Assembly (NCBI GenBank): GCA_964572435.1
Contig: CAZNGC010000001.1
Span: forward strand, 1-31,030
Reading direction: 5' to 3'
DNA: 31,030 nt
DNA from: an uncultured Planctomycetales bacterium
GTDB taxonomy: Bacteria > Omnitrophota > Gorgyraeia > Gygaellales > Profunditerraquicolaceae
The position numbers were made by a program, and so were the translations under genes. Shown piece after piece: positions 1 through 13,813 of this stretch. The notes below the pieces were generated by a model. The model did no database searches and had not been told where the DNA came from. It saw nothing but the letters and a program-made list of their open reading frames with translations. Numbering within the stretch: the first letter of the stretch is position 1; each line of letters opens with the position of its first letter.

Positions 1-405
1 AAAAAGTGCGCCGGCTAAATTATAGCGAAGCTGGTAACGGGTGAGAGAATACACCCTTAAGGCCCCGCATAAAACAGCCAATAAGACAAATATCTTGGTC
101 CCCCCCACAGCTCCGAATACCATAACAATAAGCATCAGGGGGCTCAAAGATATGTCGTAAGGAAAGCCGATAAAAGGATACCCCCCGCAGAAATGCGGGA
201 CCCTGAACGGGAATTGCTGGTACTGGGTAATCAGGACCCTGAAGAAATCCCGATACGGGCAAACCCCGCACCAATCAATCCTGGGTATACCGTTTCCGAA
301 ATCCCTGAAAACAGGCAGATAAAACAAAAATCCCAATAACAGGATAACCGCGCCGGCGGCGAGATCCCAGGAATTCCTTTTTAGAAACCGGATGGCATTC
401 TTCAT
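1..405 (-). CDS. Multi-pass membrane protein, YfhO/GT-C-like glycosyltransferase; 5' part only, runs off the window start
   Basis: Absent from the ORF track. My translation from ATG at 405 (ATGA overlap with the upstream stop) is open to base 1: MKNAIRFLKRNSWDLAAGAVILLLGFLFYLPVFRDFGNGIPRIDW...FPFRVPHFCGGYPFIGFPYDISLSPLMLIVMVFG... A TM1, an acidic loop residue and a P-x-x-x-P-x-x-x-GG-x-P segment resemble YfhO-like GT-C N-termini. Confidence 0.7.
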   Translation of the reverse strand, partial: MKNAIRFLKRNSWDLAAGAVILLLGFLFYLPVFRDFGNGIPRIDWCGVCPYRDFFRVLITQYQQFPFRVPHFCGGYPFIGFPYDISLSPLMLIVMVFGAVGGTKIFVLLAVLCGALRVYSLTRYQLRYNLAGALF

Positions 406-1799
406 CTTCTTAAATTTGAAACCATGTGTAAAATAGCCATAAACCCTTTTTCCAGTATTTTCAGTTTATCCGGGACCACCCTCCATATCCGCCAGATCTG
501 GCGCGGCCGCAGGTAAAATTCCCTGAAGGCCCTAGCCTTCATCATCTTTAATTCACGGTCATCGGCTCCTGAAATGTTTACCGAAGTCTTATGATAAGTA
601 TAGACATCAACCATGCGCATTTTCAGGTTTTCATCCAGGATCTCGTTGAACATAACGGTATTCGGCTGGGGGATCAGGAAGAAAAAATCCGCTATATGAA
701 ACCCCTCCTCCTTGGCGAAGCGTATCGTCTGGAGCATCTCTTCCTTTGTCTCTGTCGGAAAACCCAGCATGAAATATCCGCAGGTGATTATACCCTCCTG
801 TATGGTCCTGGCAATGATCTGCCTGGCCCTGTCCAGGTTAAGGTTCTTCCTGATGTTCTTCTGGATCCGCGGGGAAGCTGATTCAATGGCATAAAATATC
901 ACATGCGTACCCGCCTGTTTGAGCTTCAGGATAAGCTCCTCATCCATCCTGTCTACGCGCAGGGCGTTAGGGAAAGAGATGGCTACCTTGATCTTGCGCC
1001 TGATTATCTCGTCGCAGATTTCTTTTGCCCGGGGGATATCGAAATTAAAACAGTCGTCGATAATTTCTATTTCCTTGACCCCGTAGTCGTTAACCAGGAT
1101 TTCGATCTCCCTGATCACATTCTGCACGCTCCGGAAACGTATCTTCTTGCCGAATATGTTATGGCAATAAGTGCACTGGTAAGGGCATCCCCGGGAAGTA
1201 AACAGGGGGGCGATGTTCCGAGATGAAGGGAAAGGGGTCTCCGAATGATGTTTAAACCTGCTGAAATACCCCTTTATATCGATAAGGTCCCAGGCCGGAA
1301 AAGGCAGGCTGTCTAAGTCTTCGATCATCTCTGCCGCGGGGTTGACTACGCAGGACTGGTTCTTCCTGTAAGCCAGGCCGCTGATCTGCGAAAAATCATT
1401 GCCATTGCCCAGGGAATCCGCCAGCTTTACCATCGTCCTCTCCCCTTCCCCGATAACCGCAAAATCGATATTCTGATCGCGCATGATGTATTCCGGGCTG
1501 GAGGTGGCATACGGCCCCCCGACAACGACCTTACACTTCTTGTTGGATTCCTTGGCCAATCCCGCCAGGCGGTGGACTTCTTTAAACTCCAACGTCATTG
1601 CCGATATGCCGACCAGATCCGGGGAGAGCCCTTTCAGCCTATTCGCTAGGCCCCGGTGGTCCAGGCGCTCATGGGCCGCGTCGATAATCGTTACGTCGGT
1701 ATGGCCGTGGCCCTTGAGATAAGAAGCAAGATAGAGCGGACCCACCCGCAGGTTAGACTGCACGGATTTTGAATTAGGGATCATCAACACTATCTTCAT
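402..1799 (-). CDS. Cobalamin-binding (class B) radical SAM protein, paralog A
   Basis: N-terminal B12-binding Rossmann domain (LYLASYL..VTIID..PDLVGIS..VVVGGPYAT..DFAVIGEGE) and SRGCPYQCTYC CxxxCxxC motif; 465 aa. Confidence 0.92.
   Translation of the reverse strand: MKIVLMIPNSKSVQSNLRVGPLYLASYLKGHGHTDVTIIDAAHERLDHRGLANRLKGLSPDLVGISAMTLEFKEVHRLAGLAKESNKKCKVVVGGPYATSSPEYIMRDQNIDFAVIGEGERTMVKLADSLGNGNDFSQISGLAYRKNQSCVVNPAAEMIEDLDSLPFPAWDLIDIKGYFSRFKHHSETPFPSSRNIAPLFTSRGCPYQCTYCHNIFGKKIRFRSVQNVIREIEILVNDYGVKEIEIIDDCFNFDIPRAKEICDEIIRRKIKVAISFPNALRVDRMDEELILKLKQAGTHVIFYAIESASPRIQKNIRKNLNLDRARQIIARTIQEGIITCGYFMLGFPTETKEEMLQTIRFAKEEGFHIADFFFLIPQPNTVMFNEILDENLKMRMVDVYTYHKTSVNISGADDRELKMMKARAFREFYLRPRQIWRIWRVVPDKLKILEKGFMAILHMVSNLRR
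693..1580. repeat. 888-bp direct repeat, copy 1 (identical to 2103..2990)
   Basis: Line-by-line comparison at offset 1410 found no mismatch between 693 and 1580; the flanks diverge. Confidence 0.95.
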
Positions 1800-1817
1800 C
1801 TTGCTCCACCGGAAATA

Positions 1818-3209
1818 TTATCTGCCGGCCAGGGCGCGGATAAATACGACCAGCCCGTTTCTTAAGAGTATCCTTTTGTCCGGGACCGCCCTCCATATCC
1901 GCCAGATCTGGCGCGGCCGCAGGTAAAATTCCCTGTGCCCACGCGACCAGATACATCGCAATTCACGGTCGGAAACAGCCGACTTGTTATAGCTCAACTT
2001 CTGGTATCTGTTGATTTTAACATTTGCCCCTTCGCTGCTTTTACCGAACATCTCGTTGAACATAACGGTATTCGGCGGTGCGGTTACGAAAAACATGTTG
2101 ATTATATGAAACCCCTCCTCCTTGGCGAAGCGTATCGTCTGGAGCATCTCTTCCTTTGTCTCTGTCGGAAAACCCAGCATGAAATATCCGCAGGTGATTA
2201 TACCCTCCTGTATGGTCCTGGCAATGATCTGCCTGGCCCTGTCCAGGTTAAGGTTCTTCCTGATGTTCTTCTGGATCCGCGGGGAAGCTGATTCAATGGC
2301 ATAAAATATCACATGCGTACCCGCCTGTTTGAGCTTCAGGATAAGCTCCTCATCCATCCTGTCTACGCGCAGGGCGTTAGGGAAAGAGATGGCTACCTTG
2401 ATCTTGCGCCTGATTATCTCGTCGCAGATTTCTTTTGCCCGGGGGATATCGAAATTAAAACAGTCGTCGATAATTTCTATTTCCTTGACCCCGTAGTCGT
2501 TAACCAGGATTTCGATCTCCCTGATCACATTCTGCACGCTCCGGAAACGTATCTTCTTGCCGAATATGTTATGGCAATAAGTGCACTGGTAAGGGCATCC
2601 CCGGGAAGTAAACAGGGGGGCGATGTTCCGAGATGAAGGGAAAGGGGTCTCCGAATGATGTTTAAACCTGCTGAAATACCCCTTTATATCGATAAGGTCC
2701 CAGGCCGGAAAAGGCAGGCTGTCTAAGTCTTCGATCATCTCTGCCGCGGGGTTGACTACGCAGGACTGGTTCTTCCTGTAAGCCAGGCCGCTGATCTGCG
2801 AAAAATCATTGCCATTGCCCAGGGAATCCGCCAGCTTTACCATCGTCCTCTCCCCTTCCCCGATAACCGCAAAATCGATATTCTGATCGCGCATGATGTA
2901 TTCCGGGCTGGAGGTGGCATACGGCCCCCCGACAACGACCTTACACTTCTTGTTGGATTCCTTGGCCAATCCCGCCAGGCGGTGGACTTCGGAAGACTCC
3001 ATACTCATCCCGGATATGCCGACCAGATCCGGGGAGAGCCCTTTCAACCTATTCGCTAGTCCCCGGTGGTCCAGGCGTTCATGCCTGGCGTCGATAATCG
3101 TTACGTCGGTATGACCGTGGCCCTTGAGATAAGAGGCAAGATAGAGTAAGCCGAGCGGAATGCTGCGGATTACTTCAGGCGCGTTTGGTATGATAAATGA
3201 TATTCTCAT
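1818..3209 (-). CDS. Cobalamin-binding (class B) radical SAM protein, paralog B
   Basis: Same architecture as 402..1799, with CPYQCTYC; 463 aa; start overlaps the GT2 stop. Confidence 0.92.
   Translation of the reverse strand: MRISFIIPNAPEVIRSIPLGLLYLASYLKGHGHTDVTIIDARHERLDHRGLANRLKGLSPDLVGISGMSMESSEVHRLAGLAKESNKKCKVVVGGPYATSSPEYIMRDQNIDFAVIGEGERTMVKLADSLGNGNDFSQISGLAYRKNQSCVVNPAAEMIEDLDSLPFPAWDLIDIKGYFSRFKHHSETPFPSSRNIAPLFTSRGCPYQCTYCHNIFGKKIRFRSVQNVIREIEILVNDYGVKEIEIIDDCFNFDIPRAKEICDEIIRRKIKVAISFPNALRVDRMDEELILKLKQAGTHVIFYAIESASPRIQKNIRKNLNLDRARQIIARTIQEGIITCGYFMLGFPTETKEEMLQTIRFAKEEGFHIINMFFVTAPPNTVMFNEMFGKSSEGANVKINRYQKLSYNKSAVSDRELRCIWSRGHREFYLRPRQIWRIWRAVPDKRILLRNGLVVFIRALAGR
2103..2990. 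repeat. 888-bp direct repeat, copy 2
   Basis: Identical to 693..1580. Confidence 0.95.
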
Positions 3210-3928
3210 CTATTCTTTACTTGCCCATTTAAAATCCGGAATTTAATCCTGATAAGATCGACAAAATAGACAAAGCACAGGTTAATCAAGTATAAACCGA
3301 TCATCGAAGACTTGCCTGTTTTACGCGCAAAATGCTCAACCGGGATCTCCGTGATCCTGTAACCCTTAAACTTGGCCAAAATCATTACGGCGATGGGGAC
3401 TGCCGAAAAACCGCTATCGATATCCAGCATAATAGCCGTTAACGCTTCCTTTCTGATAAGTTTGAACGGAGAGTTTATATCCTTTATCGATATACCGAAA
3501 AGAAACATATCCATCCAACATAACAGCAGGGAAATCATCCTGCGGTGAAGGCGGTCTTTTCTTTTTAAGCGGTATCCGACAGCTATATCGCAACCTCGCA
3601 TGCTTGCGTATAGCTTCCAGAATTCCTCCAGCCTGAACTGATTGTCACCGTCAACATGAAAAACCAGAGGATTGACCGCCAGCTCAAACGCCTTGCGCAA
3701 AGCCCTGCCATGCCCGCGGTTTTTATCCAGGGTAACCACTTTCAGCTCACCGAATTTATCCCTGAGGCGCTCCAGGACTACGGACGTCGAATCAGTAGAA
3801 CCATCATTAACAACTATGATCTCGGAACCCGGTATTTTCAGGATTATCTGTGCATGGCAATCTCCGATCACCTTCTCGAGAATGTCACCTTCGTTAAACA
3901 CCGGGATAACGATCGAAACGGCATGCAT
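3206..3928 (-). CDS. GT2 glycosyltransferase, polyprenol-phosphate glycosyltransferase (DPM synthase/ArnC-like)
   Basis: SIVIPVFNE, VVNDGSTD, NRGHG, DGDNQF (DxD), KDINSPFKL, EIPVEHFARKTGKS motifs; 240 aa. Confidence 0.9.
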   Translation of the reverse strand: MHAVSIVIPVFNEGDILEKVIGDCHAQIILKIPGSEIIVVNDGSTDSTSVVLERLRDKFGELKVVTLDKNRGHGRALRKAFELAVNPLVFHVDGDNQFRLEEFWKLYASMRGCDIAVGYRLKRKDRLHRRMISLLLCWMDMFLFGISIKDINSPFKLIRKEALTAIMLDIDSGFSAVPIAVMILAKFKGYRITEIPVEHFARKTGKSSMIGLYLINLCFVYFVDLIRIKFRILNGQVKNR

Positions 3929-3933
3929 ATCTT

Positions 3934-5049
3934 TTAACGGCCTCCGGATAGCAATTCCATTCTTTTCTCTGCACTCAAACCCGGATAACTCTCTACTGCC
4001 TCGATATTATCCAGGCACCATTTGACTGTTTCATCCATATCGTAATACCGGAATAATCCAAGCCTGCCTATGCTCAAAAGGTTCTTTACGCGCACCAGCC
4101 TGTCCAGATACCGGTCAAAAATTGTCCTGTTCGCCTGCGTATATACGGGGTACATCCTGTTAGCCCCGGACGGGAATTCATACCCGACGATCGAAGAACC
4201 GCCGTCCCACGGTCCGTAACAAATGCTATAATTGCACTTTCTGGTAAAAGCGACATTGCTCTCGGGGTAATTAATACACCCGTATCTATCGTCTTGCCAA
4301 TGCCTCTCATCGAAACAAAAGGTAAAATCTATCCCCCTGTAACCCAGGGCCCCGTAACAAAAATCGAACAGTTCGTCTATCGGGATGGTCGATATGATCA
4401 AATCGTAATCCAGTCCGGGATAATCCTTTATCGCGGAGTTATAACGCACCGGGATGCCTTTTATCATCTCTTCAAACATCTGCTGATAACCGCCAACAGG
4501 CAAACCCTGCCATTGGTCATTAAAATAACCCGCGCCGTCATCTTCCCTGATCTCTATCTTCTTAGGGGCCCATCCGGCGTCCATCTCTTCAGGCGCCACC
4601 CCCCAGAATTTGACGGTATAATTACCGATGAATTTATTATACAAGGTTTCCCCGATCATCGAAACGACGCAAGCTTTAAAATTCGACGTATCCATTCTTT
4701 CCGGAAGCCGGGAAAGTTCCCGGAGAATAATATCCTTCTCCTCAAGGGTATCTATTGTCCTAAGGCTGATCGGATAAGGCAGTATTCTGCCCCCGACGAA
4801 TGTGGCTACGCGATGCAGATAGTTGTTCAATTCGGCAAACCTGCGGATAAACCCCGCGACCGCCCCGTCGCCGGTATGGAAATTATGCGGCCCAAATAAC
4901 TGATACGGCCTGTTTTGATAAAAGGCGCTCTGACAAAGCCCTCCCGGACGGTCTGCTTTCTCATAAACTATTACCCCATGCCCCCTGTCTTTAAGGAGCC
5001 TGGCGATCGTGCAACCGGATAATCCGGCCCCGATAACCGCTATGCGCAT
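3934..5049 (-). CDS. glf: UDP-galactopyranose mutase-like FAD-dependent NDP-sugar mutase
   Basis: GAGLSG dinucleotide-binding motif, GPHNFHT, KFWG, QGLPVGGY, YPV and GRLGLFRYYDMD, all matching Glf/UGM motifs. The exact substrate is uncertain. Confidence 0.8.
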   Translation of the reverse strand: MRIAVIGAGLSGCTIARLLKDRGHGVIVYEKADRPGGLCQSAFYQNRPYQLFGPHNFHTGDGAVAGFIRRFAELNNYLHRVATFVGGRILPYPISLRTIDTLEEKDIILRELSRLPERMDTSNFKACVVSMIGETLYNKFIGNYTVKFWGVAPEEMDAGWAPKKIEIREDDGAGYFNDQWQGLPVGGYQQMFEEMIKGIPVRYNSAIKDYPGLDYDLIISTIPIDELFDFCYGALGYRGIDFTFCFDERHWQDDRYGCINYPESNVAFTRKCNYSICYGPWDGGSSIVGYEFPSGANRMYPVYTQANRTIFDRYLDRLVRVKNLLSIGRLGLFRYYDMDETVKWCLDNIEAVESYPGLSAEKRMELLSGGR

Positions 5050-7434
5050 TTAAATCTTCCCCCCATACGGCCGGCCAAGATCGTTTTCTGTGCCATTTTC
5101 AAAATCAAACAGGTATTCAGGCGGAATGCAGGCCGTCTGCCCCGACCATCCATTCCTATTATAAGCATATCTCCTGGAAACACCCATACCCAATCCTTCA
5201 TATATATAGCCCCGGAACTGCCGGTCGAATTTTTGTATTAGTTTCGCGCAGCTTTTAAGATCATAAGCGAACCTCCATCCGATACCGATACCTAACCCTT
5301 TATAAAGATACCTGTCATAGCTGCCGGACACCCTTTTCAGGAATCCCGGATAATCCTTCAACCCGTGAACCAGCCTCCATCCGGCCTCAATACCAAGACG
5401 TTGATAGCATAAAGGCCTGTATTTGTCGTCTACCCTGTTTACAAGCTTCTCCCATTTAGCGGCATCATAACCGGCCCTGCCTATGCCGAATCCGAACTCG
5501 CCGTACAAGAACCGGTAATATTCCTTGCCCCGGCCCATCCCCGCGTATACCGCACGCACCTGCCTATCTTCCAGCATCCTGGTAAAGCGGAAAAACTTCT
5601 CCGGTTGATCGACCAAAAGGTCGAATAACTCCACCCCCATGCCGGTGTAGATAAACAGCTCATCCTCTTCGGGAAACCTTTTATGGAAATCCATTACAGC
5701 GTATTCCGGATCATAAGAAACTTCCCTGGCCGCTTCCCTGCCGATACCAATATAAAAATATTGCTTCACCGCCGGATCAAGATAACCTTTTAAGCCAACC
5801 ATCCTATCCCTATCGTACTTCAACTCCCTCTCCAGGGCCTCGCCCATCCACTCGTAGGCATAAGGCCAGTAGGCTTTCTCTATTTTATTTATCTCTTTAC
5901 CCAGGTAATTCCGGTAGTCGTTGTCGAAATTCTCCTCGGCATATCCCCAGCCCATCCCGCTATAACAATACCGCCTTTCTTCTCCATCTCTTATCCTGCT
6001 TACAGAATCAACCCAGCGGGATGATCCGTCAAACCTCCAGGCAATCACCCTGCCTAGGTCATAATAATTGTACCCCCTGTAAGCAGCGGAAAACCCCGCC
6101 TTCTCCATGGAGCTCTTGGATATAAAATTTGAATTTGAAACCACGCCCAAGATCAATAAGGCTGCCACGGGAAAAAGCTTCAGTAAGCCAGGCGCGCTTC
6201 TTCGGGAACTCCGATTATTGCCGTAGAGAAATATGGCTATGACCGCAGGAAACAGGAACCCTATAGGGCCAACCTGCCTGTAACGGTATATGCTCGCGTC
6301 ATAAAAATTCACGTTAAACGGCAGACCGGACAAAGCCAGAACAACGCCAAATACCACGAAAAGCGACAACAGGAATAATTCTTTATGGACATCACGCAGC
6401 GAAAATGGAGCCCCCGAAAAAGTGATAAGCCCCCGAAAAAGCGCTACAGCTTCTTTCCGCCTGCGCCATAATATTCCTAAGAAAGAGACTTCGAATACAA
6501 AATAATAAATATGGGAGCAAAACCGGTTTTCCAGCAGCGCACGCGGCTCAAATTTCAGGAATGGATCGGCAAAAGTCAGGGCCCCCGGCACATCAGCGGC
6601 AAGAAAATCATAAAACCTCGTGAAGAAACCGGCCAGGCTGCTGCGCATAAGCCAATAAGAAAAATGTTTCTCGTAAATAACCAAACCCTGGAATGCGTGA
6701 GTGAAATTATAGCAAAACCAAGGGGCAAGCCCGGCCAGAAAAGCCAGGCAGAAGACAATAAACTGCTTGCTGAATATAAACCCTTTGTCGGAAATATACC
6801 AGAACAAAATAATGGTCAATAAGGTCGGCAGGAAGCTGTAATGGAAAAACATCCCGAAACCACAGATAGCCCCAAGGATTGCAGACAGCCGGATGTTTTT
6901 CCCGATACCGGCGGGGGAAAAATACCGGAAAAACAATAAAACGGCTAAAATGGCAAAAAACATAGCCTCATATTGCGCTCCGTAGTTGGAAATGCTTGCC
7001 TTTATCCATCCCGGAGGCAGGAAAATAAAAAGAACGCTTGCACATACGGCTGTTTTATTGTTGAAGAACTTCCTCAAAAATATAAAATTGAGGATGAAAA
7101 TCCCGGTTCCGGCTAACAAGCCGGTTAATTTAAGAGATACCAGCTTCGCGCCGAAAAGAAGAAAGAACGGTACAGCCAGGAGGCCGCTGACCAGCGAGCC
7201 TCCTTCATACCTGCTCCTCTGGTAATCAAAAAACGGCAGTACCGGGCCCGAGACCAGTTCTTTAGCTACATTGCCGCGGTACAGCTCTTCATCCAGACCG
7301 ACCTGATCTATAGCGAAAAACAAAACCATAAGGCGGACTAATAAATATAAAACGGTCAGCCCCGCCAGCCATGCATATTTCCCCCTGATTCCCCGTAACA
7401 ACCACCGAATCAACATGTAAACTTTACCCGGCAT
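5050..7434 (-). CDS. GT-C fold (ArnT/PMT-like, GT39/GT83) membrane glycosyltransferase with a C-terminal helical-repeat domain
   Basis: About 10-12 hydrophobic segments in the N-terminal ~440 aa, a DE motif after TM1 (GLDEELY), and a soluble C-terminus with eight Y-x-(G/x)-[MLI]-G repeats. Confidence 0.75.
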   Translation of the reverse strand: MPGKVYMLIRWLLRGIRGKYAWLAGLTVLYLLVRLMVLFFAIDQVGLDEELYRGNVAKELVSGPVLPFFDYQRSRYEGGSLVSGLLAVPFFLLFGAKLVSLKLTGLLAGTGIFILNFIFLRKFFNNKTAVCASVLFIFLPPGWIKASISNYGAQYEAMFFAILAVLLFFRYFSPAGIGKNIRLSAILGAICGFGMFFHYSFLPTLLTIILFWYISDKGFIFSKQFIVFCLAFLAGLAPWFCYNFTHAFQGLVIYEKHFSYWLMRSSLAGFFTRFYDFLAADVPGALTFADPFLKFEPRALLENRFCSHIYYFVFEVSFLGILWRRRKEAVALFRGLITFSGAPFSLRDVHKELFLLSLFVVFGVVLALSGLPFNVNFYDASIYRYRQVGPIGFLFPAVIAIFLYGNNRSSRRSAPGLLKLFPVAALLILGVVSNSNFISKSSMEKAGFSAAYRGYNYYDLGRVIAWRFDGSSRWVDSVSRIRDGEERRYCYSGMGWGYAEENFDNDYRNYLGKEINKIEKAYWPYAYEWMGEALERELKYDRDRMVGLKGYLDPAVKQYFYIGIGREAAREVSYDPEYAVMDFHKRFPEEDELFIYTGMGVELFDLLVDQPEKFFRFTRMLEDRQVRAVYAGMGRGKEYYRFLYGEFGFGIGRAGYDAAKWEKLVNRVDDKYRPLCYQRLGIEAGWRLVHGLKDYPGFLKRVSGSYDRYLYKGLGIGIGWRFAYDLKSCAKLIQKFDRQFRGYIYEGLGMGVSRRYAYNRNGWSGQTACIPPEYLFDFENGTENDLGRPYGGKI

Positions 7435-8428
7435 TCTTTAGAAGCGGACTGGAAAATTTGCTCATATTAAACAAGGCGTCCAGCTTGAACGACAACATAC
7501 AATTAAGCTCAACCGATGAAGGACAGGAGCATTTATCGCAATAAACGAAGGGAAGTTGATAGAACCTGTTTTTGAAACCCGCGGGATCCCCGCTTGGCGC
7601 CTCCCGGGACAGCCGATTCCTGAAACATATATCGAGACTTCCGTCGCTTTCGATCCTGGCGGAAACAAGGCCTGCGTAACAGGGGATCTTTTTCAACCGG
7701 GGCCAATCATACAAAAATTTCAGCCCGGATACGGAATGGCCTATAGTATATTTATCTTTCATTTTCCTGCCTATAAGATACCGTATGACTTTCCTGTATT
7801 CACCATCTTCCGGAGCCAAAGGGTTGCGCTGGCTGCCCCCCAGCAGGAAAACTGTCGATGGCTGAAAAATAATCGAAGCGTTAAATTCCCTGGCCTTATC
7901 CAAGAGAAAATCGACACAACCAAGGTTAAGGCTTGAAAGTACCGTGAGGATCCTCGGAGTTATTTTATGCTCTTTTATTACGGAAAGCGCATCGATCACT
8001 TCCCTATACGATCCCTGCCCCCTGATCCGGTCATGCACTTCTTCCGGGCCATCCAGGCTTAAACCGACCAAGCTTAGGTTCCTGATTTCTTCTATCCTTT
8101 GGCTGATAAGCGAACCATTGGAATTAACCGAACTCAAAACCCCTACCTGGCGGCAGTGATCTATTATCGCCCCAAGGTCATCTCTCAACAAAGGTTCCCC
8201 GCCGGTAAAGTGGATTATCCTCGTGCCGAGCCCGGACATCTCATCTATGAGCGCGAAAACCTGCGGGGTAGTTAATTCTTTCGATTTAATATTATGGATA
8301 TTGCAATATTGACAGCTGCGGTTACAACGGGTGGTAATTGCCCAGCTCACGACAAGCGGTGTTTTCTTCCTGAAAATACGCGCCGCAAACAATGAATAAG
8401 CGATGGAAAGCTTGTTTTTTATCCCCAT
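7424..8428 (-). CDS. Radical SAM protein with a Twitch/SPASM-type C-terminal Cys cluster
   Basis: CNRSCQYC, FTGGEPLLR, SLDG..HDRIRG; C-terminal CYAG..G.L.IC..CDKCSC. Start set at ATG 8428; TTG 8449 in the ORF track is the alternative. Confidence 0.88.
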   Translation of the reverse strand: MGIKNKLSIAYSLFAARIFRKKTPLVVSWAITTRCNRSCQYCNIHNIKSKELTTPQVFALIDEMSGLGTRIIHFTGGEPLLRDDLGAIIDHCRQVGVLSSVNSNGSLISQRIEEIRNLSLVGLSLDGPEEVHDRIRGQGSYREVIDALSVIKEHKITPRILTVLSSLNLGCVDFLLDKAREFNASIIFQPSTVFLLGGSQRNPLAPEDGEYRKVIRYLIGRKMKDKYTIGHSVSGLKFLYDWPRLKKIPCYAGLVSARIESDGSLDICFRNRLSREAPSGDPAGFKNRFYQLPFVYCDKCSCPSSVELNCMLSFKLDALFNMSKFSSPLLKNAG

Positions 8429-8463
8429 ATTCCCGAAACCTCCAGGCAAAATCCTCCATTGTC

Positions 8464-8491
8464 ATTATATCATCCGCTTCCCTTAAATCAA
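8464..8491 (-). promoter_or_regulatory. sigma70-type promoter for the Twitch-rSAM to GT-C operon
   Basis: TTGATT-16 nt-TATAAT with an extended -10 (TGA-TATAAT), in the 8429-8572 intergenic gap. Confidence 0.6.
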
Positions 8492-8572
8492 AACATACAT
8501 TCTAAACCGAAAAGGCAACTACAGGCAGGGCAGGCGGATACGTATATGCCGCAATGATGCGTCCGGGCCGGA

Positions 8573-9973
8573 TCAACGCAGGGCAAACGCGGAATGAATG
8601 AGCCCGCGGAATTCCCTCCAGGACCGGACTCCCATAGCTGTCTTGAATATAAAGGCCGGCCTCAAGTAAAAGCTCCTCATGGATTTTTTTATCCACCTAT
8701 CCAGGTCGTCCGCGGAAAGTTCCGAATCAAGCGGGGCAAAACCACTCGACAATTCCTTGTGGCCGAGGGCATACTCCATCCAAGTGTCCACGCCGTCGCG
8801 CCGCACCACCATATCGTACAAACCGGTGTTTGGTATGGGGACAAGTTTGTTAATCTGCACGTAGTCTAGGTTGAGTTCTTTGGCGAATTCGACTGTCTTA
8901 AGGATATTCCGCCTGCTTTCTCCAGGAAAACCGATTATAAAGAACCCTAAAACCGACATTCTTTCCTCTTTCGTCCAACGCACCACATCCCTGATTAACG
9001 AAAGCGGGATATCCCTTTTAACCGCCTTGAGAACTTCGGGATTTGCGGATTCGATACCATAATGCACTCTTCCGCATCCGGCCCTGGCGAATAATTTGAT
9101 GAGTTCCCTGTCAACGCAATCCGGCCTGGTCCGGATTGTCCAGACAAGGTCCATCTCCCTCCTGATTATCTCCTCGCATATAAGCACGGCCCTCTGTTTA
9201 TTGAGGGAAAATATCTCATCGTAAAAATTGATTTCTTTGATCTTAAACCTGCCGCGGCATTCCTCCATTTCATCGACTACCCTAACAGGATCCCGGAATA
9301 CCACCTTTTTATCATGCAGGCAGTATGTGCATTCAAAAGGGCACCCCGAGCTGGACATCATTACCGTGGAAGGGTATCTCTTCGAAAGAATGGTGGTATA
9401 TTTGTGGTTAGGCAGTAAGTGCCTGGCCGGCCAGGGAGCGCTGTCGATATCGATTTTCCCTTCTCTTCCCCTGGTGATTATAAACTCATCTCCTTTTCTA
9501 AAAGCTATACCCTTGACGCCATTAGGGTCATTGCCATTTTCCAGGCAATTTATCAATTCAGGCATGCTCTCCCATCCCTCGCCTACTACGCAGAAATCGA
9601 TTTCCTTGAAAGTAAGCGTCTGCCGGGGGTAAAACGTAACATGCGGTCCCCCGACAATCACGGTGGCCTTGCAAGCACTCTTTACCACCCTTATCCACTC
9701 TAAATCAACATGAAAATTTGGGGTTACTAAAGAAAAGGAAATGATCCCGGGGTTGAATGTTCTGGCTTCCTCGATAACTTCTTTTACGGTCAGGCGCAGC
9801 GCGTTGGCGTCGATAATCTTAACCTGATGATGTTCCTCCTCCATTATCGCGGCAAGATAAGCAATCCCCAAAGGCGGCAGGATAGCGCCTTCCCGGCTGT
9901 TCTGCCGGCAAACATTCTCGGTAGAAGCAGCCTTGCATACTTGCTGCGGAGGGAAAATGAATAGTATTCTCAT
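8573..9973 (-). CDS. Cobalamin-binding radical SAM protein (HpnJ/BchE-like architecture)
   Basis: LPPLGIAYLAA, VGGPHVT, DFCVVGEGW, SSGCPFECTYC, GIES, GFFIIGFPGE; 466 aa. Confidence 0.92.
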   Translation of the reverse strand: MRILFIFPPQQVCKAASTENVCRQNSREGAILPPLGIAYLAAIMEEEHHQVKIIDANALRLTVKEVIEEARTFNPGIISFSLVTPNFHVDLEWIRVVKSACKATVIVGGPHVTFYPRQTLTFKEIDFCVVGEGWESMPELINCLENGNDPNGVKGIAFRKGDEFIITRGREGKIDIDSAPWPARHLLPNHKYTTILSKRYPSTVMMSSSGCPFECTYCLHDKKVVFRDPVRVVDEMEECRGRFKIKEINFYDEIFSLNKQRAVLICEEIIRREMDLVWTIRTRPDCVDRELIKLFARAGCGRVHYGIESANPEVLKAVKRDIPLSLIRDVVRWTKEERMSVLGFFIIGFPGESRRNILKTVEFAKELNLDYVQINKLVPIPNTGLYDMVVRRDGVDTWMEYALGHKELSSGFAPLDSELSADDLDRWIKKSMRSFYLRPAFIFKTAMGVRSWREFRGLIHSAFALR

Positions 9974-10031
9974 AATATTACGGATGATGAAACTTGCCTT
10001 ACCGCGATGTTTTAAAACTTCTGCCGTCTTT

Positions 10032-10871
10032 TTAAGAAGCCTTTTCGGGCAACAAGATAGTCAATACCGCGCGTATGCCCCATTTTGGCCCGCAGCTGGG
10101 AGTCTGCGGGTAATAGATCCCGGATATCCCGGCGCTCAAGAACCTGCCGAAAAACGGGATAACCTGGCTAACCCCTCCGATCAGGGGGACCGTCCACTCC
10201 CTGTCCTTCCAGTTATAAGTCGATTCGGAAGAAAAAGAAATGGTGAATCCATTCTTGGAAGTATGCGAGAAAAAAGGCTGGAGGTAAGTAGCGCATATGT
10301 CCTGGCGCGAGTCATTACCGGCATAAGACCAGGTATGGTTGGCAAGAACACCCGCCGTCCACGGACCGGATTGCTTAAGCACGACTCCGTTAGGGCCTAC
10401 CCCGTATTTTTCAGAACCAAGGTATTTACTGGCGGCCGTTGGGAAAAGCAAAACCGGGCCTACCCCCCAAATCAACCCTTTTGACCCCGGCTCTTTGGGG
10501 GAAAAGAAAGCCTCTATCTCCATATCGCCGAAACCTTCCTGTGAAGCCCGTCCGACGACGTCTTTTTGGTAAATATAAGGCACGATCGGACGGAATATGA
10601 AATTCCAATCTTGATTAACGGAAAAAGGGACCACCGGCTGGGACTTAAGCGTATAACGGAAACCTTTCTTTTCAGAACCAAGCTTGTATTCAAAGTTATT
10701 CTGGAAAGGAATACTGATCAGCGAAGCTACGGGATTTTGCAGTTTCTTGGCTAATTTTTCGCTGGTTGCCACGGGTGGTTCTGCCCCGCTTCCGGGCCGG
10801 GCTTCTTCCTGGGCAAAAATAACCCCCCGGGACAATAACAGAATCACTGCGCAATATATAAATTTCTTCAC
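10032..10871 (-). CDS. Putative outer-membrane beta-barrel ('transporter'/MetA-pathway-like family)
   Basis: Signal peptide, LAKKLQNPVASLISIPFQNN family signature and alternating beta-strand pattern (WGVGPVLLFPTA, YLQPFFSHT). Confidence 0.75.
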   Translation of the reverse strand: MKKFIYCAVILLLSRGVIFAQEEARPGSGAEPPVATSEKLAKKLQNPVASLISIPFQNNFEYKLGSEKKGFRYTLKSQPVVPFSVNQDWNFIFRPIVPYIYQKDVVGRASQEGFGDMEIEAFFSPKEPGSKGLIWGVGPVLLFPTAASKYLGSEKYGVGPNGVVLKQSGPWTAGVLANHTWSYAGNDSRQDICATYLQPFFSHTSKNGFTISFSSESTYNWKDREWTVPLIGGVSQVIPFFGRFLSAGISGIYYPQTPSCGPKWGIRAVLTILLPEKAS

Positions 10872-10941
10872 AAATAACCCCTGTCTTTTTAAATACCCGG
10901 GAGAAATTCTTCGGCTGGCACATCCAATTCCAACTTAAATC

Positions 10942-10970
10942 ATTATATACCTATTCTTACCTCGCGCCAA
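10942..10970 (-). promoter_or_regulatory. sigma70-type promoter for the barrel gene
   Basis: TTGGCG-17 nt-TATAAT. Confidence 0.6.
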
Positions 10971-11001
10971 CTTAATCAATAGAGAGCGTTTCCCCGGGAA
11001 C

Positions 11002-11034
11002 AAAAACCCCTGCGGGTATTTAACCGGCAGGGGG
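11002..11034 (-). terminator. Intrinsic terminator downstream of tRNA-Gln
   Basis: Minus strand CCCCTGC-C-GGT-TAAAT-ACC-C-GCAGGGG followed by TTTTT. Confidence 0.8.
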
Positions 11035-11044
11035 ATTAAGATAT

Positions 11045-11118
11045 TGGTTGCCCCGCATGGACTCGAACCATGACAACAAGATCCAGAATCTTGTGTCCTA
11101 CCATTAGACGACAGGGCA
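11045..11118 (-). tRNA. tRNA-Gln(CTG), CCA encoded
   Basis: TGCCCTGTCGTCTAATGGTAGGACACAAGATTCTGGATCTTGTTGTCATGGTTCGAGTCCATGCGGGGCAACCA: U1-A72 acceptor stem, anticodon arm CAAGA-TTCTGGA-TCTTG and T-loop GTTCGAG. Confidence 0.96.
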
Positions 11119-11138
11119 ATAGTTTTATTTATTTAAGA

Positions 11139-11167
11139 AGTATAACGTGGATAAAAAACTAAATCAA
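11139..11167 (-). promoter_or_regulatory. sigma70-type promoter for tRNA-Gln
   Basis: TTGATT-17 nt-TATACT, 20 nt upstream of the mature tRNA 5' end. Confidence 0.7.
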
Positions 11168-11236
11168 GGGAATTATTTTACAAAACCTGCCAGGATAAAC
11201 CTGCCGCATCGAACAGGCGATATGCTGATCCCATGC

Positions 11237-11539
11237 CTATCTTAATTTAACGGCTATATCCAGAAGAGTGCTAACCAAAAAAGATCTTATGAACATTATC
11301 GCCAGGAAAGCGATTACCGGGGATATGTCGATGCCGAACTTCAGGCTTACCGGAAGGACTCTTCTTATGGGAGACAGCACCGGTTCGGTAAACTTCTCCA
11401 GGAACTGCACTATCGGGTTATACGGATCAGGGTTAACCCAGCTTAACAGCGCGCGGATTAACAACAACCAGTAATATATCCCGAGGATTACGTTTAAAAC
11501 ATTGGCTGCAGCGACGATAAAATTAGCGAGGATAAAAAT
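11237..11539 (-). CDS. yggT: YggT family membrane protein, apparent ATT start codon
   Basis: IRALLSWVNPDPYNPIVQFL..TEPVL.PIR..DISP signature. The family-like N-terminus (M)FILANFIVAAANVLNVILGIYYW begins at ATT 11539, 6 nt after GGAGG. The ORF-track start at 11467 truncates TM1. Confidence 0.85.
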   Translation of the reverse strand: MFILANFIVAAANVLNVILGIYYWLLLIRALLSWVNPDPYNPIVQFLEKFTEPVLSPIRRVLPVSLKFGIDISPVIAFLAIMFIRSFLVSTLLDIAVKLR

Positions 11540-11562
11540 ATTTTCCCTCCGCGTTGACCTCT

Positions 11563-11709
11563 TTACTTGCCAGCGCCATGCGCGTCTTCGTATTTCTTCA
11601 GAAACTTTGTAATATTTTTGTTTATACGGCGGATGTTGAATGATATGTCCACGATAAAAACAAAAACCAACCCCAGCATCAATGCTGAAAAAACGGTTGT
11701 ATAAAGCAT
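11563..11709 (-). CDS. 48-aa single-pass membrane peptide, unknown function
   Basis: AAGGAGG RBS then ATG; MLYTTVFSALMLGLVFVFIVDISFNIRRINKNITKFLKKYEDAHGAGK*. Below the ORF-track length cutoff. Confidence 0.65.
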   Translation of the reverse strand: MLYTTVFSALMLGLVFVFIVDISFNIRRINKNITKFLKKYEDAHGAGK

Positions 11710-11795
11710 CCTTCGCCTCCTTTGGGCTTACGATACCCCCTTGCCGGGGCCTGGAAAATGTTATTAAACACGAATTTGCGGATTACGGCGGAAAA

Positions 11796-11877
11796 ATAAA
11801 TAAAAAAGGCAAGGGGAAATTTTCTTGGCTTTAGCCTCTGGGCATTGCCTGCCCGCTGGTAGTTTACCCCTTGCCTT
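11796..11877 (-). terminator. Terminator-like multi-branch hairpin (possible attenuator or small RNA)
   Basis: 11-bp perfect stem AAGGCAAGGGG/CCCCTTGCCTT (11867-11877 with 11806-11816) enclosing ~50 nt with sub-hairpins, followed by a T-rich run (TTTTATTTATTTTT). Confidence 0.65.
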
Positions 11878-11892
11878 ACTTCTCACTGATAA

Positions 11893-11922
11893 AATATAAC
11901 ACATATTATCCATATATTTCAA
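11893..11922 (-). promoter_or_regulatory. sigma70-type promoter immediately upstream of the structured element
   Basis: TTGAAA-18 nt-TATATT with extended -10 TG-T-TATATT. Confidence 0.55.
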
Positions 11923-11939
11923 GGGGAAGAAAAATATTT

Positions 11940-12524
11940 TTATTTATCATTCTTCGCCTTACCGCCAAGCTTTCCGGCATCCAGATTAGCCGTGGCCGAC
12001 TGGATTATCTTCTGGTATTCTGGAGGCAATTTTGAGAGGTCCATGCCCGCGGGCAGGCCTCCGGCAGGGCTGACCGTCCCGGGCTTCCCGGAACCAGCTC
12101 CCTGCATACCTTGCGTAACCATCTGGATCATCTTCTTGTATTCAGGCGGCAGTTGGGATAAATCCGCTTCCGGAGAAGGCCCTGAAACCACAGGGATTGT
12201 TTCCACAGGCTGGGCGGCCTCCGGAGGCGTCAATAAAACAGCCTTTTCTTCCTTTGGCTTAGGAGGGATATTCAACGAAGACGAATAGGCCTGGTAAAGG
12301 GATTTAAGCTGGGGGCTGACAACATCGTTCCCCGGGACAATGGAAGCTATTTCATCCTTATAGTAAACCAGCTCCACCCCGAGAAAATCCAGTTTCACGT
12401 ACTGTTCCGTATTCTCGGTAATCTTCGCATCGACTCTTTGCCCCGATTTAAGTATTATCGTTTCGCTAAAACCAGTCCCCGCAAAAGAAACCAGGAAAAT
12501 GACGCAAGAAATGCAAAGTTTCAT
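11940..12524 (-). CDS. Secreted hypothetical protein with a Pro-rich linker and two DLSxLPPEYxKxIQ repeats
   Basis: Signal peptide; small beta domain (IILKSGQRVDAKITE); ATG 12524 overlaps the gltX stop (ATGA). The ORF track starts at 12533. Confidence 0.75.
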   Translation of the reverse strand: MKLCISCVIFLVSFAGTGFSETIILKSGQRVDAKITENTEQYVKLDFLGVELVYYKDEIASIVPGNDVVSPQLKSLYQAYSSSLNIPPKPKEEKAVLLTPPEAAQPVETIPVVSGPSPEADLSQLPPEYKKMIQMVTQGMQGAGSGKPGTVSPAGGLPAGMDLSKLPPEYQKIIQSATANLDAGKLGGKAKNDK

Positions 12525-13813
12525 TTTGCCCATTTCAGCAGTCTCCTTTTCGTCCTTTCCATCCCAAGATGATATATCAGCTCAAAGAGCCCGGGGCCGA
12601 TGGTTTTTCCGGTCAAGGCCACCCTTAACGGATGGATCAATACCTTAGCCTCAATATTGAGTTCGGAAACCAGGTCCCGGAAACATTTTTCGATATTCTC
12701 AACACTGTAATCGCTTAATCCTTCAAGCCCGGCGATAAAAAGATTGAATTCTTTTGACAGGTCCCTGCTCAAGAATTTATCCCGGGCAGCCGGATCCATT
12801 GCTGCTTCTTCAACGAAAAAGAAATCCGCCCAGTCGGCGAAATCGTTTATGTGGGCAAGCCTGGGTTGGAATAATTTTATCAGCCCAAGGACATACTCGC
12901 GGTCATACCCTTCTTTTTTAATATACCCCTTATCGATAAGCAAAGGCATAATTTCGTCCAGAAGCTTCTGCGGGTCAGCATCCTTCAGATACTGGTTATT
13001 TATCCAATCCAACTTCTTGAGGTCGAACGTGGCCGCGGTCTTATTCACGTTCCTGATATCGAACAGCGCAACCGCCTCTTTAAGGCCGATTATCTCCCGG
13101 TTCCCCCCGGGAGACCAGCTTAATAACAAAAGATAATTTACCAATGCCTCCGGCAGATAACCCATCCTGCGGTAATCGCTGATCGCGGTCGCCCCTGTTC
13201 TTTTGGAAAGCCTTCCTCCGTCAACACCCATGATCAAAGGGAGGTGCGCAAAATAAGGAAGCGAAAAACCCAGGGCCTCATAAAACATGGCCTGTTTGGG
13301 CGTATTGGAAATATGATCGTCCCCGCGGATTATGTGCGTAATATTCATCTCCGCGTCGTCAACCACGCAGGCGAAGTTATATGTAGGGGTGCCGTCTGAT
13401 TTTATCAATACCTGGTCTTTTATCAGGCTGGAATCGAATTCAATCTGCCCGCGAACCAGGTCGTTAACCTTTATCTTCCCGGAGGGGACCTTAAAAATCA
13501 CCGCCTCCTTGCCCTCGGGAGATTTTTCAATATAGGCCAGGCCGGATTTAAGCAGTTTATCGGCATGCATACGATACCTGTCAAAACGCTCGCTCTGATA
13601 ATAAAGCTCATCCCAATCAAAACCCAGCCACTTGAGACTGAAGAGTATCTCGTCGACAAATTCCTTCTTCGAACGCTCTTTATCCGTGTCCTCGATCCTC
13701 AAAACAAACTTGCCTTTTTGTGATTGCGAAAAAAGCCAGTTAAATAAAGCCGTGCGCCCTCCTCCGATATGCAGATTGCCTGTCGGGCTCGGTGCGAATC
13801 TTACCCTAACCAT
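12521..13813 (-). CDS. gltX: Glutamate--tRNA ligase
   Basis: VRVRFAPSPTGNLHIGG, RIEDTD, IIRGDDH, RLSKR (KMSKS-equivalent). Confidence 0.96.
   Translation of the reverse strand: MVRVRFAPSPTGNLHIGGGRTALFNWLFSQSQKGKFVLRIEDTDKERSKKEFVDEILFSLKWLGFDWDELYYQSERFDRYRMHADKLLKSGLAYIEKSPEGKEAVIFKVPSGKIKVNDLVRGQIEFDSSLIKDQVLIKSDGTPTYNFACVVDDAEMNITHIIRGDDHISNTPKQAMFYEALGFSLPYFAHLPLIMGVDGGRLSKRTGATAISDYRRMGYLPEALVNYLLLLSWSPGGNREIIGLKEAVALFDIRNVNKTAATFDLKKLDWINNQYLKDADPQKLLDEIMPLLIDKGYIKKEGYDREYVLGLIKLFQPRLAHINDFADWADFFFVEEAAMDPAARDKFLSRDLSKEFNLFIAGLEGLSDYSVENIEKCFRDLVSELNIEAKVLIHPLRVALTGKTIGPGLFELIYHLGMERTKRRLLKWAK

What the first reader, a model, noticed from the sequence alone, without database searches (positions are those of the whole stretch)
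402..3209. Tandem B12-radical SAM paralogs with an 888-bp perfectly identical core but diverged ends
Seen: 693..1580 equals 2103..2990 (offset 1410), covering the distal B12 domain and most of the TIM barrel, and a second 45-bp identical block lies at 481..525/1891..1935. Just outside the core the copies carry many synonymous changes (old divergence). They also differ in clustered segments: PNSKSVQSNLRVGP vs PNAPEVIRSIPLGL, ISAMTLEFKE vs ISGMSMESSE, IADFFFLIPQPNT vs IINMFFVTAPPNT, VYTYHKT vs INRYQKL. Inference: recent gene conversion homogenised the catalytic chassis while substrate-facing loops diverged, giving two regio- or substrate-specific variants (or a heterodimer). Recombination between the cores would create chimeras or delete one copy, a possible route to glycan variation.
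Basis: partly seen in the sequence, partly recalled or inferred. Interest (0 to 1): 0.62.

Follow-up and report, generated by a model that had tools for sequence, protein, structure and literature searches.

The report
Tandem B12-radical SAM paralogs, homogenised core
Two neighbouring cobalamin-radical SAM enzyme genes in an uncultured Omnitrophota bacterium are an old duplicate pair whose catalytic middle has been copied from one gene onto the other, leaving the ends distinct; this is a known kind of evolution, and short-read assembly may overstate the "perfect" identity.

Summary
Window 693-1580 equals 2103-2990 exactly (888 nt, offset 1410), and a second exact block is 47 nt (479-525 = 1889-1935). 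The genes lie on the minus strand: A is 402-1799 and B is 1818-3209. Both have a B12-binding domain plus a radical SAM domain, and they sit in a conserved operon GT-C, B12-rSAM, Glf, GT2, B, A.

Recent gene conversion is supported:
- dS is 0 over 193 synonymous sites in the core, but about 1 or saturated at the ends.
- The C-terminal 96 residues fall into two deep clades, A-type and B-type, shared with other Omnitrophota that keep the same B-A tandem.
- The core groups by genome, and an AU test rejects type monophyly on the core (p = 0.0015).

Two claims are weaker.
- Perfect identity is not verified at read level. Only k=31 contigs were available. The core's k-mer depth is about 1.45x the flanks, not 2x. 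A 45-nt patch (aa 180-194) differs between two assemblies of this species but is the same in both copies within each. That fits either concerted evolution or assembler bulge flattening.
- Only the C-terminal cap is plausibly substrate-facing. The two N-terminal patches are the loops under the cobalamin.

Recombinational glycan variation is not shown. This is a new member of a known kind, of modest interest.

The parts
402..1799 (-). Gene A (P0001, 465 aa): B12-binding Rossmann domain, radical SAM partial TIM barrel, A-type C-terminal cap
   Evidence: ORF; PF02310 and PF04055; Shine-Dalgarno GGAG upstream of the ATG; A-type clade 99/97
1818..3209 (-). Gene B (P0002, 463 aa): same architecture with a B-type C-terminal cap; its start overlaps the GT2 stop
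   Evidence: B-type clade 100/100
693..1580 (-). Identical core, copy in A (aa 74-369: helix alpha3 of the Rossmann domain through barrel helix alpha5, up to the start of beta6)
   Evidence: Exact match to 2103-2990; dS 0 over 193 synonymous sites; secondary structure from the model
2103..2990 (-). Identical core, copy in B
1218..1262 (-). Loop aa 180-194 just before barrel strand 1 (B copy at 2628-2672). The window carries a derived variant in both copies. A second assembly of the species and run X1 carry the family-consensus variant.
1581..1601 (-). Divergent island aa 67-73 (B copy at 2991-3011): loop after beta3, under the cobalt; residue 70 aligns with TokK Trp76
   Evidence: PMC13331322
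1602..1736 (-). Older, partly decayed conversion tract aa 22-66 (dS 0.255, dN 0.024); B copy at 3012-3146
1737..1775 (-). Divergent island aa 9-21 (B copy at 3147-3185): beta1-alpha1 'His loop' equivalent; synonymous sites saturated
405..692 (-). A-type C-terminal region aa 370-465: barrel strand beta6 plus helical cap
   Evidence: dS 1.4-1.6; A-type clade; all 6 type-specific positions lie here
1821..2102 (-). B-type C-terminal region aa 370-463
479..525 (-). 47-nt exact block inside the cap (aa 425-440), equal to 1889-1935
   Evidence: k-mer depth 26.5 against about 10.5 in the flanks in X1
3206..3928 (-). GT2 glycosyltransferase, resembling polyprenyl-phosphate sugar synthases
   Evidence: PF00535; best NCBIfam matches are ArnC-, PpgS- and dolichyl-P-hexose-transferase-like, all below cut-off; 59% identical to its syntenic Lac Pavin ortholog
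3934..5049 (-). UDP-galactopyranose mutase-like protein (Glf)
   Evidence: PF03275; TIGR00031 at 201 bits, below cut-off; 61% identical to its syntenic ortholog
5050..7434 (-). 794-aa protein, GT-C/PMT_2-like by language-model features only
   Evidence: No Pfam or NCBIfam hit; Atlas nearest clusters carry PF13231; 58% identical to its syntenic ortholog
8573..9973 (-). Third B12-radical SAM paralog (33% identical to A and B), conserved in the same block
1..405 (-). Next ORF downstream of A, cut by the contig end; overlaps A's stop
   Evidence: 64% identical to the ORF after A in the Lac Pavin MAG

Best explanation
A and B are an ancient tandem pair of class-B (cobalamin-dependent) radical SAM enzymes in a conserved Omnitrophota glycan operon (GT-C, B12-rSAM, Glf, GT2, B, A).

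Shown: the two genes differ durably only in strand beta6 plus the C-terminal cap, and in two loops under the cobalamin. The rest, aa 74-369, is identical in the assembly.

Inferred mechanism: RecA-type intrachromosomal gene conversion between the direct repeats repeatedly overwrites the shared Rossmann-barrel chassis. Tracts cannot start in, or are selected against when they extend into, the strongly diverged ends. So the middle stays alike and keeps recombining, while the ends keep two specificities.

Inferred function: both are cobalamin-dependent radical SAM tailoring enzymes, most likely C-methyltransferases. They would act on two different positions or intermediates of a galactofuranose-containing, polyprenyl-phosphate-linked glycan, with the cap choosing the substrate.
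For: - Exact 888-nt match.
- dS is 0 of 193 synonymous sites in the core, 0.255 in aa 22-66, and about 1 to saturated in aa 1-21, 67-73, 370-424 and 441-465.
- The C-terminal tree gives an A-type clade (99/97) and a B-type clade (100/100), each spanning several species.
- An AU test on the core rejects B-type monophyly, p = 0.0015.
- The same B-A tandem and neighbours occur in a Lac Pavin Omnitrophota MAG at 54-69% identity.
- That pair keeps 82% nt identity in the core and has a 66-nt exact run (permutation p = 0.001). This shows conversion where assembly collapse cannot be the cause.
- In run X1, contigs from both C-terminal flanks stop exactly 30 nt into the core. The piece spanning the end of B and the start of A has flank-level depth, so the tandem is real.
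- Fold: AF2 model pLDDT 93. The closest solved folds are TsrM, MgmA, AprD4 and TokK, TM 0.65-0.75.
- The cap binds substrate in TsrM and TokK (PMC9204698).
Against: - Read-level identity is unverified. The core contig in X1 has k-mer depth 15.6 against 10.4-11.2 in the flanks (1.45x, not 2x).
- The aa 180-194 patch is identical in both copies within each of two assemblies, yet differs between them. A JGI B-type protein carries one variant, and a JGI A-type ortholog from a 91%-identical strain carries the other. This would also result if A and B truly differ there and assemblers flattened the bulge.
- In a second lineage, N-terminal module, mid patch and cap type occur in most combinations across short-read assemblies. 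That is equally expected from phasing errors.
- Substrate and chemistry are unknown. All curated NCBIfam models score below cut-off.
- AprD4, a cobalamin-independent sugar diol dehydratase, is as close in fold as the methylases are.
Confidence: 0.75

Rival explanations
1. The cores are nearly but not perfectly identical. Short islands or SNPs, such as the 45-nt aa 180-194 patch, really distinguish A from B. They were flattened by bulge removal in a de Bruijn assembler that then walked the same graph edge twice. The homogenisation is real; the '888-bp perfect' figure is an artefact.
For: - Core k-mer depth is 1.45x the flanks in X1 and about 1-1.5x in X2-X4.
- Logan contigs demonstrably drop one of two paralog-specific branches. 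X1 keeps only the B version of 1581-1602/2991-3012, and X2 keeps only the A version.
- The patch variant is shared by both copies within each assembly but differs between assemblies.
- X1 and X3 share three flank SNPs (55, 68, 90) yet show different patch variants.
- Every exact block outside the core is 47 nt or shorter, which is shorter than a commonly used largest assembly k-mer (55; this assembly's settings are unknown).
- This is the only repeat of 200 nt or more at 98% or more in the MAG.
- Modules are shuffled among assemblies in a second lineage.
Against: - No contig with the alternative patch was seen in the same run.
- Two MAGs and several runs agree on every other core base.
- Strain-level polymorphism together with true concerted evolution gives the same picture.
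- Depth from contigs is crude at 3-11x.
Confidence: 0.4
2. A very recent whole-gene duplication was followed by fast adaptive divergence of the ends, with no conversion.
For: Clustered amino-acid differences in loops.
Against: - Synonymous sites at the ends are saturated, while the core has none changed.
- A-type and B-type caps each have orthologs in other species in the same tandem order.
Confidence: 0.03
3. The tandem is a misassembly of two strain alleles of a single gene.
For: The genome is a metagenome bin with 3.4% contamination. Several strains are present in the runs.
Against: - A contig spanning the start of A, the 18-nt spacer and the end of B exists at flank depth in X1.
- A second NCBI assembly and an independent Lac Pavin MAG have the same B-A order.
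Confidence: 0.03
4. The pair is a recombinational switch. Frequent unequal crossover or conversion between the cores makes chimeras, deletions or triplications that vary the glycan within a population.
For: - One contig in X2 joins 1602 to 3013 (skips 1410 nt).
- One contig in X4 joins 1888 to 479 (goes back 1410 nt).
- Module combinations vary in lineage 2.
Against: - Both junctions lie in shared blocks of 34 and 47 nt, longer than k=31, in runs of 3-6x depth, where graph paths can cross.
- In X1 the inter-copy piece is as deep as the flanks, so one-copy genomes are rare there.
- No invertase, recombinase or repeat signal lies next to the genes.
Confidence: 0.05

Closest known systems
Concerted evolution by gene conversion of bacterial paralogs (tufA/tufB, from my own knowledge; rRNA operons, PMC8022953; class-I release factors RF1/RF2, PMC4530459)
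   Same: Paralogs older than the species are more alike within a genome than orthologs are between genomes. Tracts are mosaic and of different ages. The functionally distinct parts escape homogenisation, as I understand is also the case for RF1/RF2 (the paper was seen only in a search listing, not read).
   Different: Here the pair is a head-to-tail tandem 18 nt apart, and the boundary coincides with a domain border (beta6 and the cap). The same border region recurs in a second lineage (aa 362 against 369). The enzymes are uncharacterised.
Class B cobalamin-dependent radical SAM enzymes with solved structures: TsrM (6WTE/6WTF), TokK (7KDX/7KDY), MgmA/QCMT (9CCB), CysS (9N1B)
   Same: N-terminal Rossmann B12 domain without a His ligand, a CxxxCxxC partial TIM barrel and a C-terminal cap. 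Foldseek TM is 0.65-0.75. A hydrophobic residue (Leu or Met at 70) sits at the position of TokK Trp76.
   Different: Only 17-21% identical. The cap is short (about 95 aa) and all-helical. Substrate is unknown. The genomic context is glycan biosynthesis, not antibiotic or protein modification.
AprD4 (6FD2), radical SAM 1,2-diol dehydratase acting on an aminoglycoside sugar
   Same: Comparable sequence and fold score (E = 2.5e-19; TM 0.70). Its substrate is a sugar.
   Different: NF033070 scores 82-86 bits against a cut-off of 500. From my own knowledge, AprD4 does not use cobalamin. A and B keep the GG and S-x-L/M B12 motifs, which are conserved across the family.
BchE / HpnJ / Sden_1168 P-methyltransferase NCBIfam families
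   Same: These are the best-scoring curated models (161-199 bits).
   Different: All are far below their cut-offs (481-578 bits), so A and B are not members.

Membership tests
Class B (cobalamin-binding) radical SAM enzymes | N-terminal B12-binding Rossmann domain | tested here: met
   PF02310, E = 2e-20 and 8e-21, above the gathering score. The model has five beta-alpha units and GG at 94-95, invariant in 111 homologs.
Class B (cobalamin-binding) radical SAM enzymes | CxxxCxxC cluster motif in a partial (beta/alpha)6 barrel | tested here: met
   C205, C209 and C212 are invariant. PF04055 matches aa 201-362. Barrel strands are present in the model.
Class B (cobalamin-binding) radical SAM enzymes | Base-off, His-off cobalamin with a non-ligand residue from the loop after strand 3 under the cobalt | tested here: inconclusive
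   There is no His in the beta1 loop. Leu70 (A) and Met70 (B) align with TokK Trp76 (PMC13331322). Cofactor binding itself cannot be tested here.
Class B (cobalamin-binding) radical SAM enzymes | Cobalamin-dependent methyl transfer activity | not testable with these tools
   Needs biochemistry.
BchE (TIGR02026) | Score at or above the curated cut-off of 481 bits | tested here: not met
   197 and 199 bits.
AprD4 diol dehydratases (NF033070) | Score at or above the curated cut-off of 500 bits | tested here: not met
   86 and 82 bits.
Paralogs under concerted evolution by gene conversion | The duplication predates the species split | tested here: met
   A-type and B-type cap clades each span several species. 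The B-A tandem is syntenic in a MAG whose orthologs are 66-69% identical.
Paralogs under concerted evolution by gene conversion | In the converted segment, paralogs within a genome group together against their orthologs | tested here: met
   Core tree 100/100; AU p = 0.0015.
Paralogs under concerted evolution by gene conversion | A sharp break in synonymous divergence at the tract ends | tested here: met
   dS is 0 in the core against about 1 or more on both sides.
Paralogs under concerted evolution by gene conversion | Identity confirmed on single molecules or reads, not only in a consensus | tested here: inconclusive
   Only k=31 contigs were served. Core depth is 1.45x and bubbles are popped.
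Programmed recombinational variation (phase or antigenic variation cassettes) | Recombinant forms present as subpopulations | tested here: inconclusive
   Two junction contigs lie in shared 34- and 47-nt blocks at low depth. The inter-copy piece is at full depth in X1.

The most novel reading that the evidence does not exclude
The B-A pair works as a natural cassette system. One conversion-maintained catalytic chassis carries exchangeable small modules: the His loop, the beta3 loop, the pre-barrel loop aa 180-194, the aa 330-342 patch seen in a second lineage, and the cap. These modules truly re-assort between the two copies and among strains, giving Omnitrophota populations combinatorial variety in radical glycan tailoring.
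Probability: 0.15. Interest if true: 0.6.

Novelty: new member of a known kind. Interest (0 to 1): 0.36.

Why it matters
Domain-limited gene conversion is textbook, so the evolutionary finding is not new in kind. Its practical value is that nature has run a chimera experiment on an uncharacterised branch of cobalamin-radical SAM enzymes. The two proteins share every residue from 74 to 369 and differ only in strand beta6, a roughly 95-residue cap and two loops beneath the cobalamin. Whatever distinguishes their reactions must therefore lie in those parts. That gives a small, testable set of specificity determinants for enzymes tied to a conserved Glf/GT2/GT-C glycan operon in Omnitrophota.

The case is also a caution for metagenome work. 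Exact long repeats inside short-read contigs can hide paralog-specific islands, and protein catalogues then hold shuffled chimeras.

Tried and rejected
The DNA of the second NCBI assembly (60,658-nt contig) and of the 3,471-nt JGI contig with the B-type protein could not be read. The metagenome scan returned only the JGI A-type contig, L038.
- No raw reads were served. All four holder runs are Logan k=31 contigs, so read-level phasing and true depth were out of reach.
- The single-sequence AF2 model was useless (pLDDT 43) and was replaced by an alignment-based model.
- I tested whether the aa 180-194 variants are related by compensating frameshifts. They are not.
- I looked for a donor of either patch variant elsewhere in the MAG and found none.
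- DGR-type mutagenesis is rejected. The substitutions are not adenine-specific, and no reverse-transcriptase domain was found in the 28 ORFs scanned against Pfam (roughly 1-25,400); the two ORFs between 25,477 and 31,028 were not scanned.
- I first read the X3 contig at 2047-2238 as an 'unconverted B allele' and then withdrew that. It is 88% identical overall, its unlisted mismatches probably lie in the B-specific part, and it matches neither L038 nor the window. It is probably a related strain.
- I first took the Lac Pavin pair's 83% core identity as strong concerted evolution. The core tree shows its two genes sit with their own types, and only a short tract (66-nt exact run) is converted.
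- No close ortholog was found in 60 related representative genomes (best 43%).
- Longer tandem arrays of five to six B12-rSAM genes in three other MAGs show no exact shared runs beyond 25 nt.
- Gaps in contig cover (for example X2 at 1603-1905) were not used as evidence.
Full report
**Observation**

An offset scan shows that window 693-1580 is base-for-base identical to 2103-2990 (888 nt, offset 1410). The next longest exact block is 47 nt (479-525 = 1889-1935). All other blocks are 34 nt or shorter. Flanking 50-nt windows are 42-96% identical.

The two ORFs lie on the minus strand. A is 402-1799 (P0001, 465 aa) and B is 1818-3209 (P0002, 463 aa). They are 18 nt apart, with a GGAG Shine-Dalgarno before A. 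B's start overlaps the stop of the upstream GT2. Both proteins carry PF02310 (B12-binding) and PF04055 (radical SAM). The core is aa 74-369.

**Context and taxon**

The window is the whole of contig C1, the longest contig of a 1.38-Mb MAG with 204 contigs (N50 9.6 kb; 93% complete, 3.4% contaminated). Source names of homologs and related loci point to Candidatus Omnitrophota.

Upstream of B, all on the minus strand, lie these genes:
- a GT2 that resembles polyprenyl-phosphate sugar synthases;
- a UDP-galactopyranose mutase-like gene;
- a 794-aa protein whose nearest language-model clusters carry PMT_2 (GT-C);
- a SPASM-type radical SAM;
- a third B12-rSAM, 33% identical to A and B.

A Lac Pavin Omnitrophota MAG (L072) has the same block: GT-C, B12-rSAM, Glf, GT2, B-type, A-type, next ORF. 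Its proteins are 54-69% identical to the window's. The tandem B-A pair is therefore much older than this species and belongs to a conserved glycan operon.

**Evidence for conversion**

Nei-Gojobori estimates along the A/B codon alignment:

| Segment | dS |
|---|---|
| aa 74-369 (core) | 0 of 193 synonymous sites |
| aa 425-440 (47-nt block) | 0 |
| aa 22-66 | 0.255 (dN 0.024) |
| aa 67-73 | about 1 |
| aa 370-424 | 1.4 |
| aa 441-465 | 1.6 |
| aa 1-21 | saturated |

This is a mosaic of at least three ages.

Trees of 31 family members:
- The C-terminal 96 residues split into an A-type clade (99/97) and a B-type clade (100/100), each containing several species.
- The core places winA and winB together (100/100). 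It also pairs P0009 with P0015 (100/100), and the two genes attributed to one 6,002-nt contig (89/93).
- An AU test on the core rejects monophyly of the B-type genes (p = 0.0015, delta lnL 281).

In the P0009/P0015 lineage, identity runs from residue 1 to 362 and then breaks. That is close to the window's break at 369.

The Lac Pavin pair is not recently homogenised; each core sits with its own type. It still holds a 130-nt stretch at 95-98% identity with a 66-nt exact run (permutation p = 0.001). Conversion in this pair is therefore seen even where assembly collapse cannot be invoked.

Positions conserved within each type but different between types occur only after residue 374 (6 positions, none in aa 1-369).

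**Is the perfect identity real?**

What they do show, in X1 (flank depth 10.4-11.2):
- Contigs from both C-terminal flanks end exactly 30 nt into the core (496-722 and 1906-2132).
- One 944-nt contig covers the core.
- A 312-nt contig (1607-1918) bridges the start of A, the spacer and the end of B at flank depth.

So the tandem and the shared core are real, and genomes with one copy deleted are rare in X1.

Four points urge caution.
- The core contig's k-mer depth is 15.6, about 1.45 times the flanks rather than 2 times. The 47-nt block reads 26.5.
- The contigs demonstrably pop paralog-specific bubbles. X1 retains only the B version of the 22-nt island, and X2 retains only the A version.
- The aa 180-194 loop comes in two same-length, 45-nt forms. 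The window (both copies), X2-X4 and a JGI B-type protein carry a derived form. A second NCBI assembly of the species (both copies), X1 and a JGI A-type ortholog carry the family-consensus form. X1 and X3 share three flank SNPs yet differ in the patch.
- In the second lineage, N-terminal module, mid patch (aa 330-342) and cap type occur in most combinations across ENA assemblies.

Each of these fits either true concerted evolution with strain polymorphism, or short islands flattened or mis-phased by short-read assemblers. SPAdes-type bulge removal has no sequence-similarity criterion (my own knowledge). Also, every surviving A/B difference lies where flanking exact blocks are shorter than 55 nt.

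Collapse cannot create identity from sequences as different as the Lac Pavin pair. The homogenisation itself is therefore robust. Only the last few percent are in doubt.

**Structure and the 'substrate-facing' claim**

An alignment-based AF2 model is confident (pLDDT 93, pTM 0.92). Foldseek finds TsrM, MgmA, AprD4, TokK, OxsB and CysS at TM 0.65-0.75.

| Variable segment | Position in the model |
|---|---|
| aa 9-21 | beta1-alpha1 loop, the 'His loop' position |
| aa 67-73 | loop after beta3 and start of alpha3 |
| aa 180-194 | loop before barrel strand 1 |
| aa 370-376 | barrel strand beta6 |
| remainder to the end | helical cap |

In the HMMER alignment to TokK, residue 70 (Leu in A, Met in B) pairs with Trp76. 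A review states that the residue under the cobalt comes from the loop after strand 3 in OxsB, TsrM and TokK (PMC13331322). The two N-terminal patches therefore face the cofactor's lower side. Another review documents that the C-terminal cap and the barrel form the substrate pocket in TsrM and TokK, and that beta6 carries a SAM-binding motif (PMC9204698).

The B-type loops are well conserved across species (85-86% between winB and the Lac Pavin B, against 56% for the segment between them). The A-type His loop has Arg where the wider family has a nearly invariant Pro18. These islands look maintained rather than random.

**Function**

No curated model reaches its cut-off. The best are BchE at 197-199 bits of 481 needed, then Sden_1168, HpnJ and AprD4.

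From the operon I infer tailoring of a Galf-containing, polyprenyl-phosphate-linked glycan. The chemistry would most likely be cobalamin-dependent C-methylation, with A and B acting on different positions or intermediates. This is inference only. An AprD4-like non-methylating reaction is not excluded.

**Recombinational variation**

Two junction contigs exist: X2 joins 1602 to 3013, and X4 joins 1888 to 479. Both junctions fall in shared blocks longer than k, in runs of 3-6x depth, so I treat them as unverified.

**Verdict**

- Gene conversion of an ancient tandem pair is well supported.
- Perfect identity and copy-specificity of the aa 180-194 patch remain open.
- Only the cap is plausibly substrate-facing.
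- There is no evidence for programmed variation.
- This is a new member of a known kind. It is useful mainly as a natural chimera that narrows down the specificity determinants, and as a warning about repeats in short-read MAGs.

Noticed in passing
window 1218-1262 and 2628-2672: A 15-residue loop just before the CxxxCxxC strand exists in two same-length forms, about 50% identical at DNA level, flanked by identical sequence. The window's form departs from the family consensus and has no donor elsewhere in the MAG.
   Followed up: partly
proteins P0009, P0125-P0133, P0015 (ENA assemblies, a second lineage): Two N-terminal modules (aa 3-17), two mid patches (aa 330-342) and two cap types occur in most combinations across assemblies. 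These are either real recombinants or chimeric short-read contigs entering protein catalogues.
   Followed up: partly
run X2 contig joining 1602 to 3013; run X4 contig joining 1888 to 479: These are junction contigs equivalent to a one-unit deletion hybrid and a one-unit 'go-back'. Both cross in shared 34- and 47-nt blocks at low depth, so their status is unknown.
   Followed up: partly
run X3 contig at window 2047-2238: A 202-nt contig at depth 2.8, 88% identical, with differences in the core part mostly at third codon positions. It is probably a related strain's copy and matches neither the window nor L038.
   Followed up: partly
L073, L075, L080 (other MAGs), about 4500-13300 in each locus: Head-to-tail arrays of five to six B12-radical SAM genes of the same family, 26-69% identical pairwise, with no exact shared runs longer than 25 nt. 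Tandem expansion of this family is common, but recent conversion is not.
   Followed up: partly
L072 4589-7389: The Lac Pavin B-A pair has a 130-nt stretch (gene nt 361-490) at 95-98% identity with a 66-nt exact run, inside an 82% identical core. This looks like a short, older conversion tract.
   Followed up: yes
window 5050-7434 (minus strand): A 794-aa protein with no Pfam or NCBIfam hit. Its nearest Atlas clusters carry PMT_2 (GT-C). With the ArnC/PpgS-like GT2 and Glf, this suggests a polyprenyl-phosphate-sugar route to a periplasmic acceptor.
   Followed up: partly
whole MAG (G000): The A/B core is the only repeat of 200 nt or more at 98% or higher identity in the 1.38-Mb assembly, and it sits in its longest contig.
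   Followed up: yes
window 2079-2081 (codon 377 of B): B has Ala where a Pro is nearly invariant (90% or more of 111 homologs) just after strand beta6. A keeps the Pro.
   Followed up: no
relatives G001-G060: Genomes of 1-2.5 Mb in this order carry many B12-radical SAM paralogs (up to 12 or more matches at E of 1e-40 or better), often clustered. That is a large share of such small genomes.
   Followed up: no
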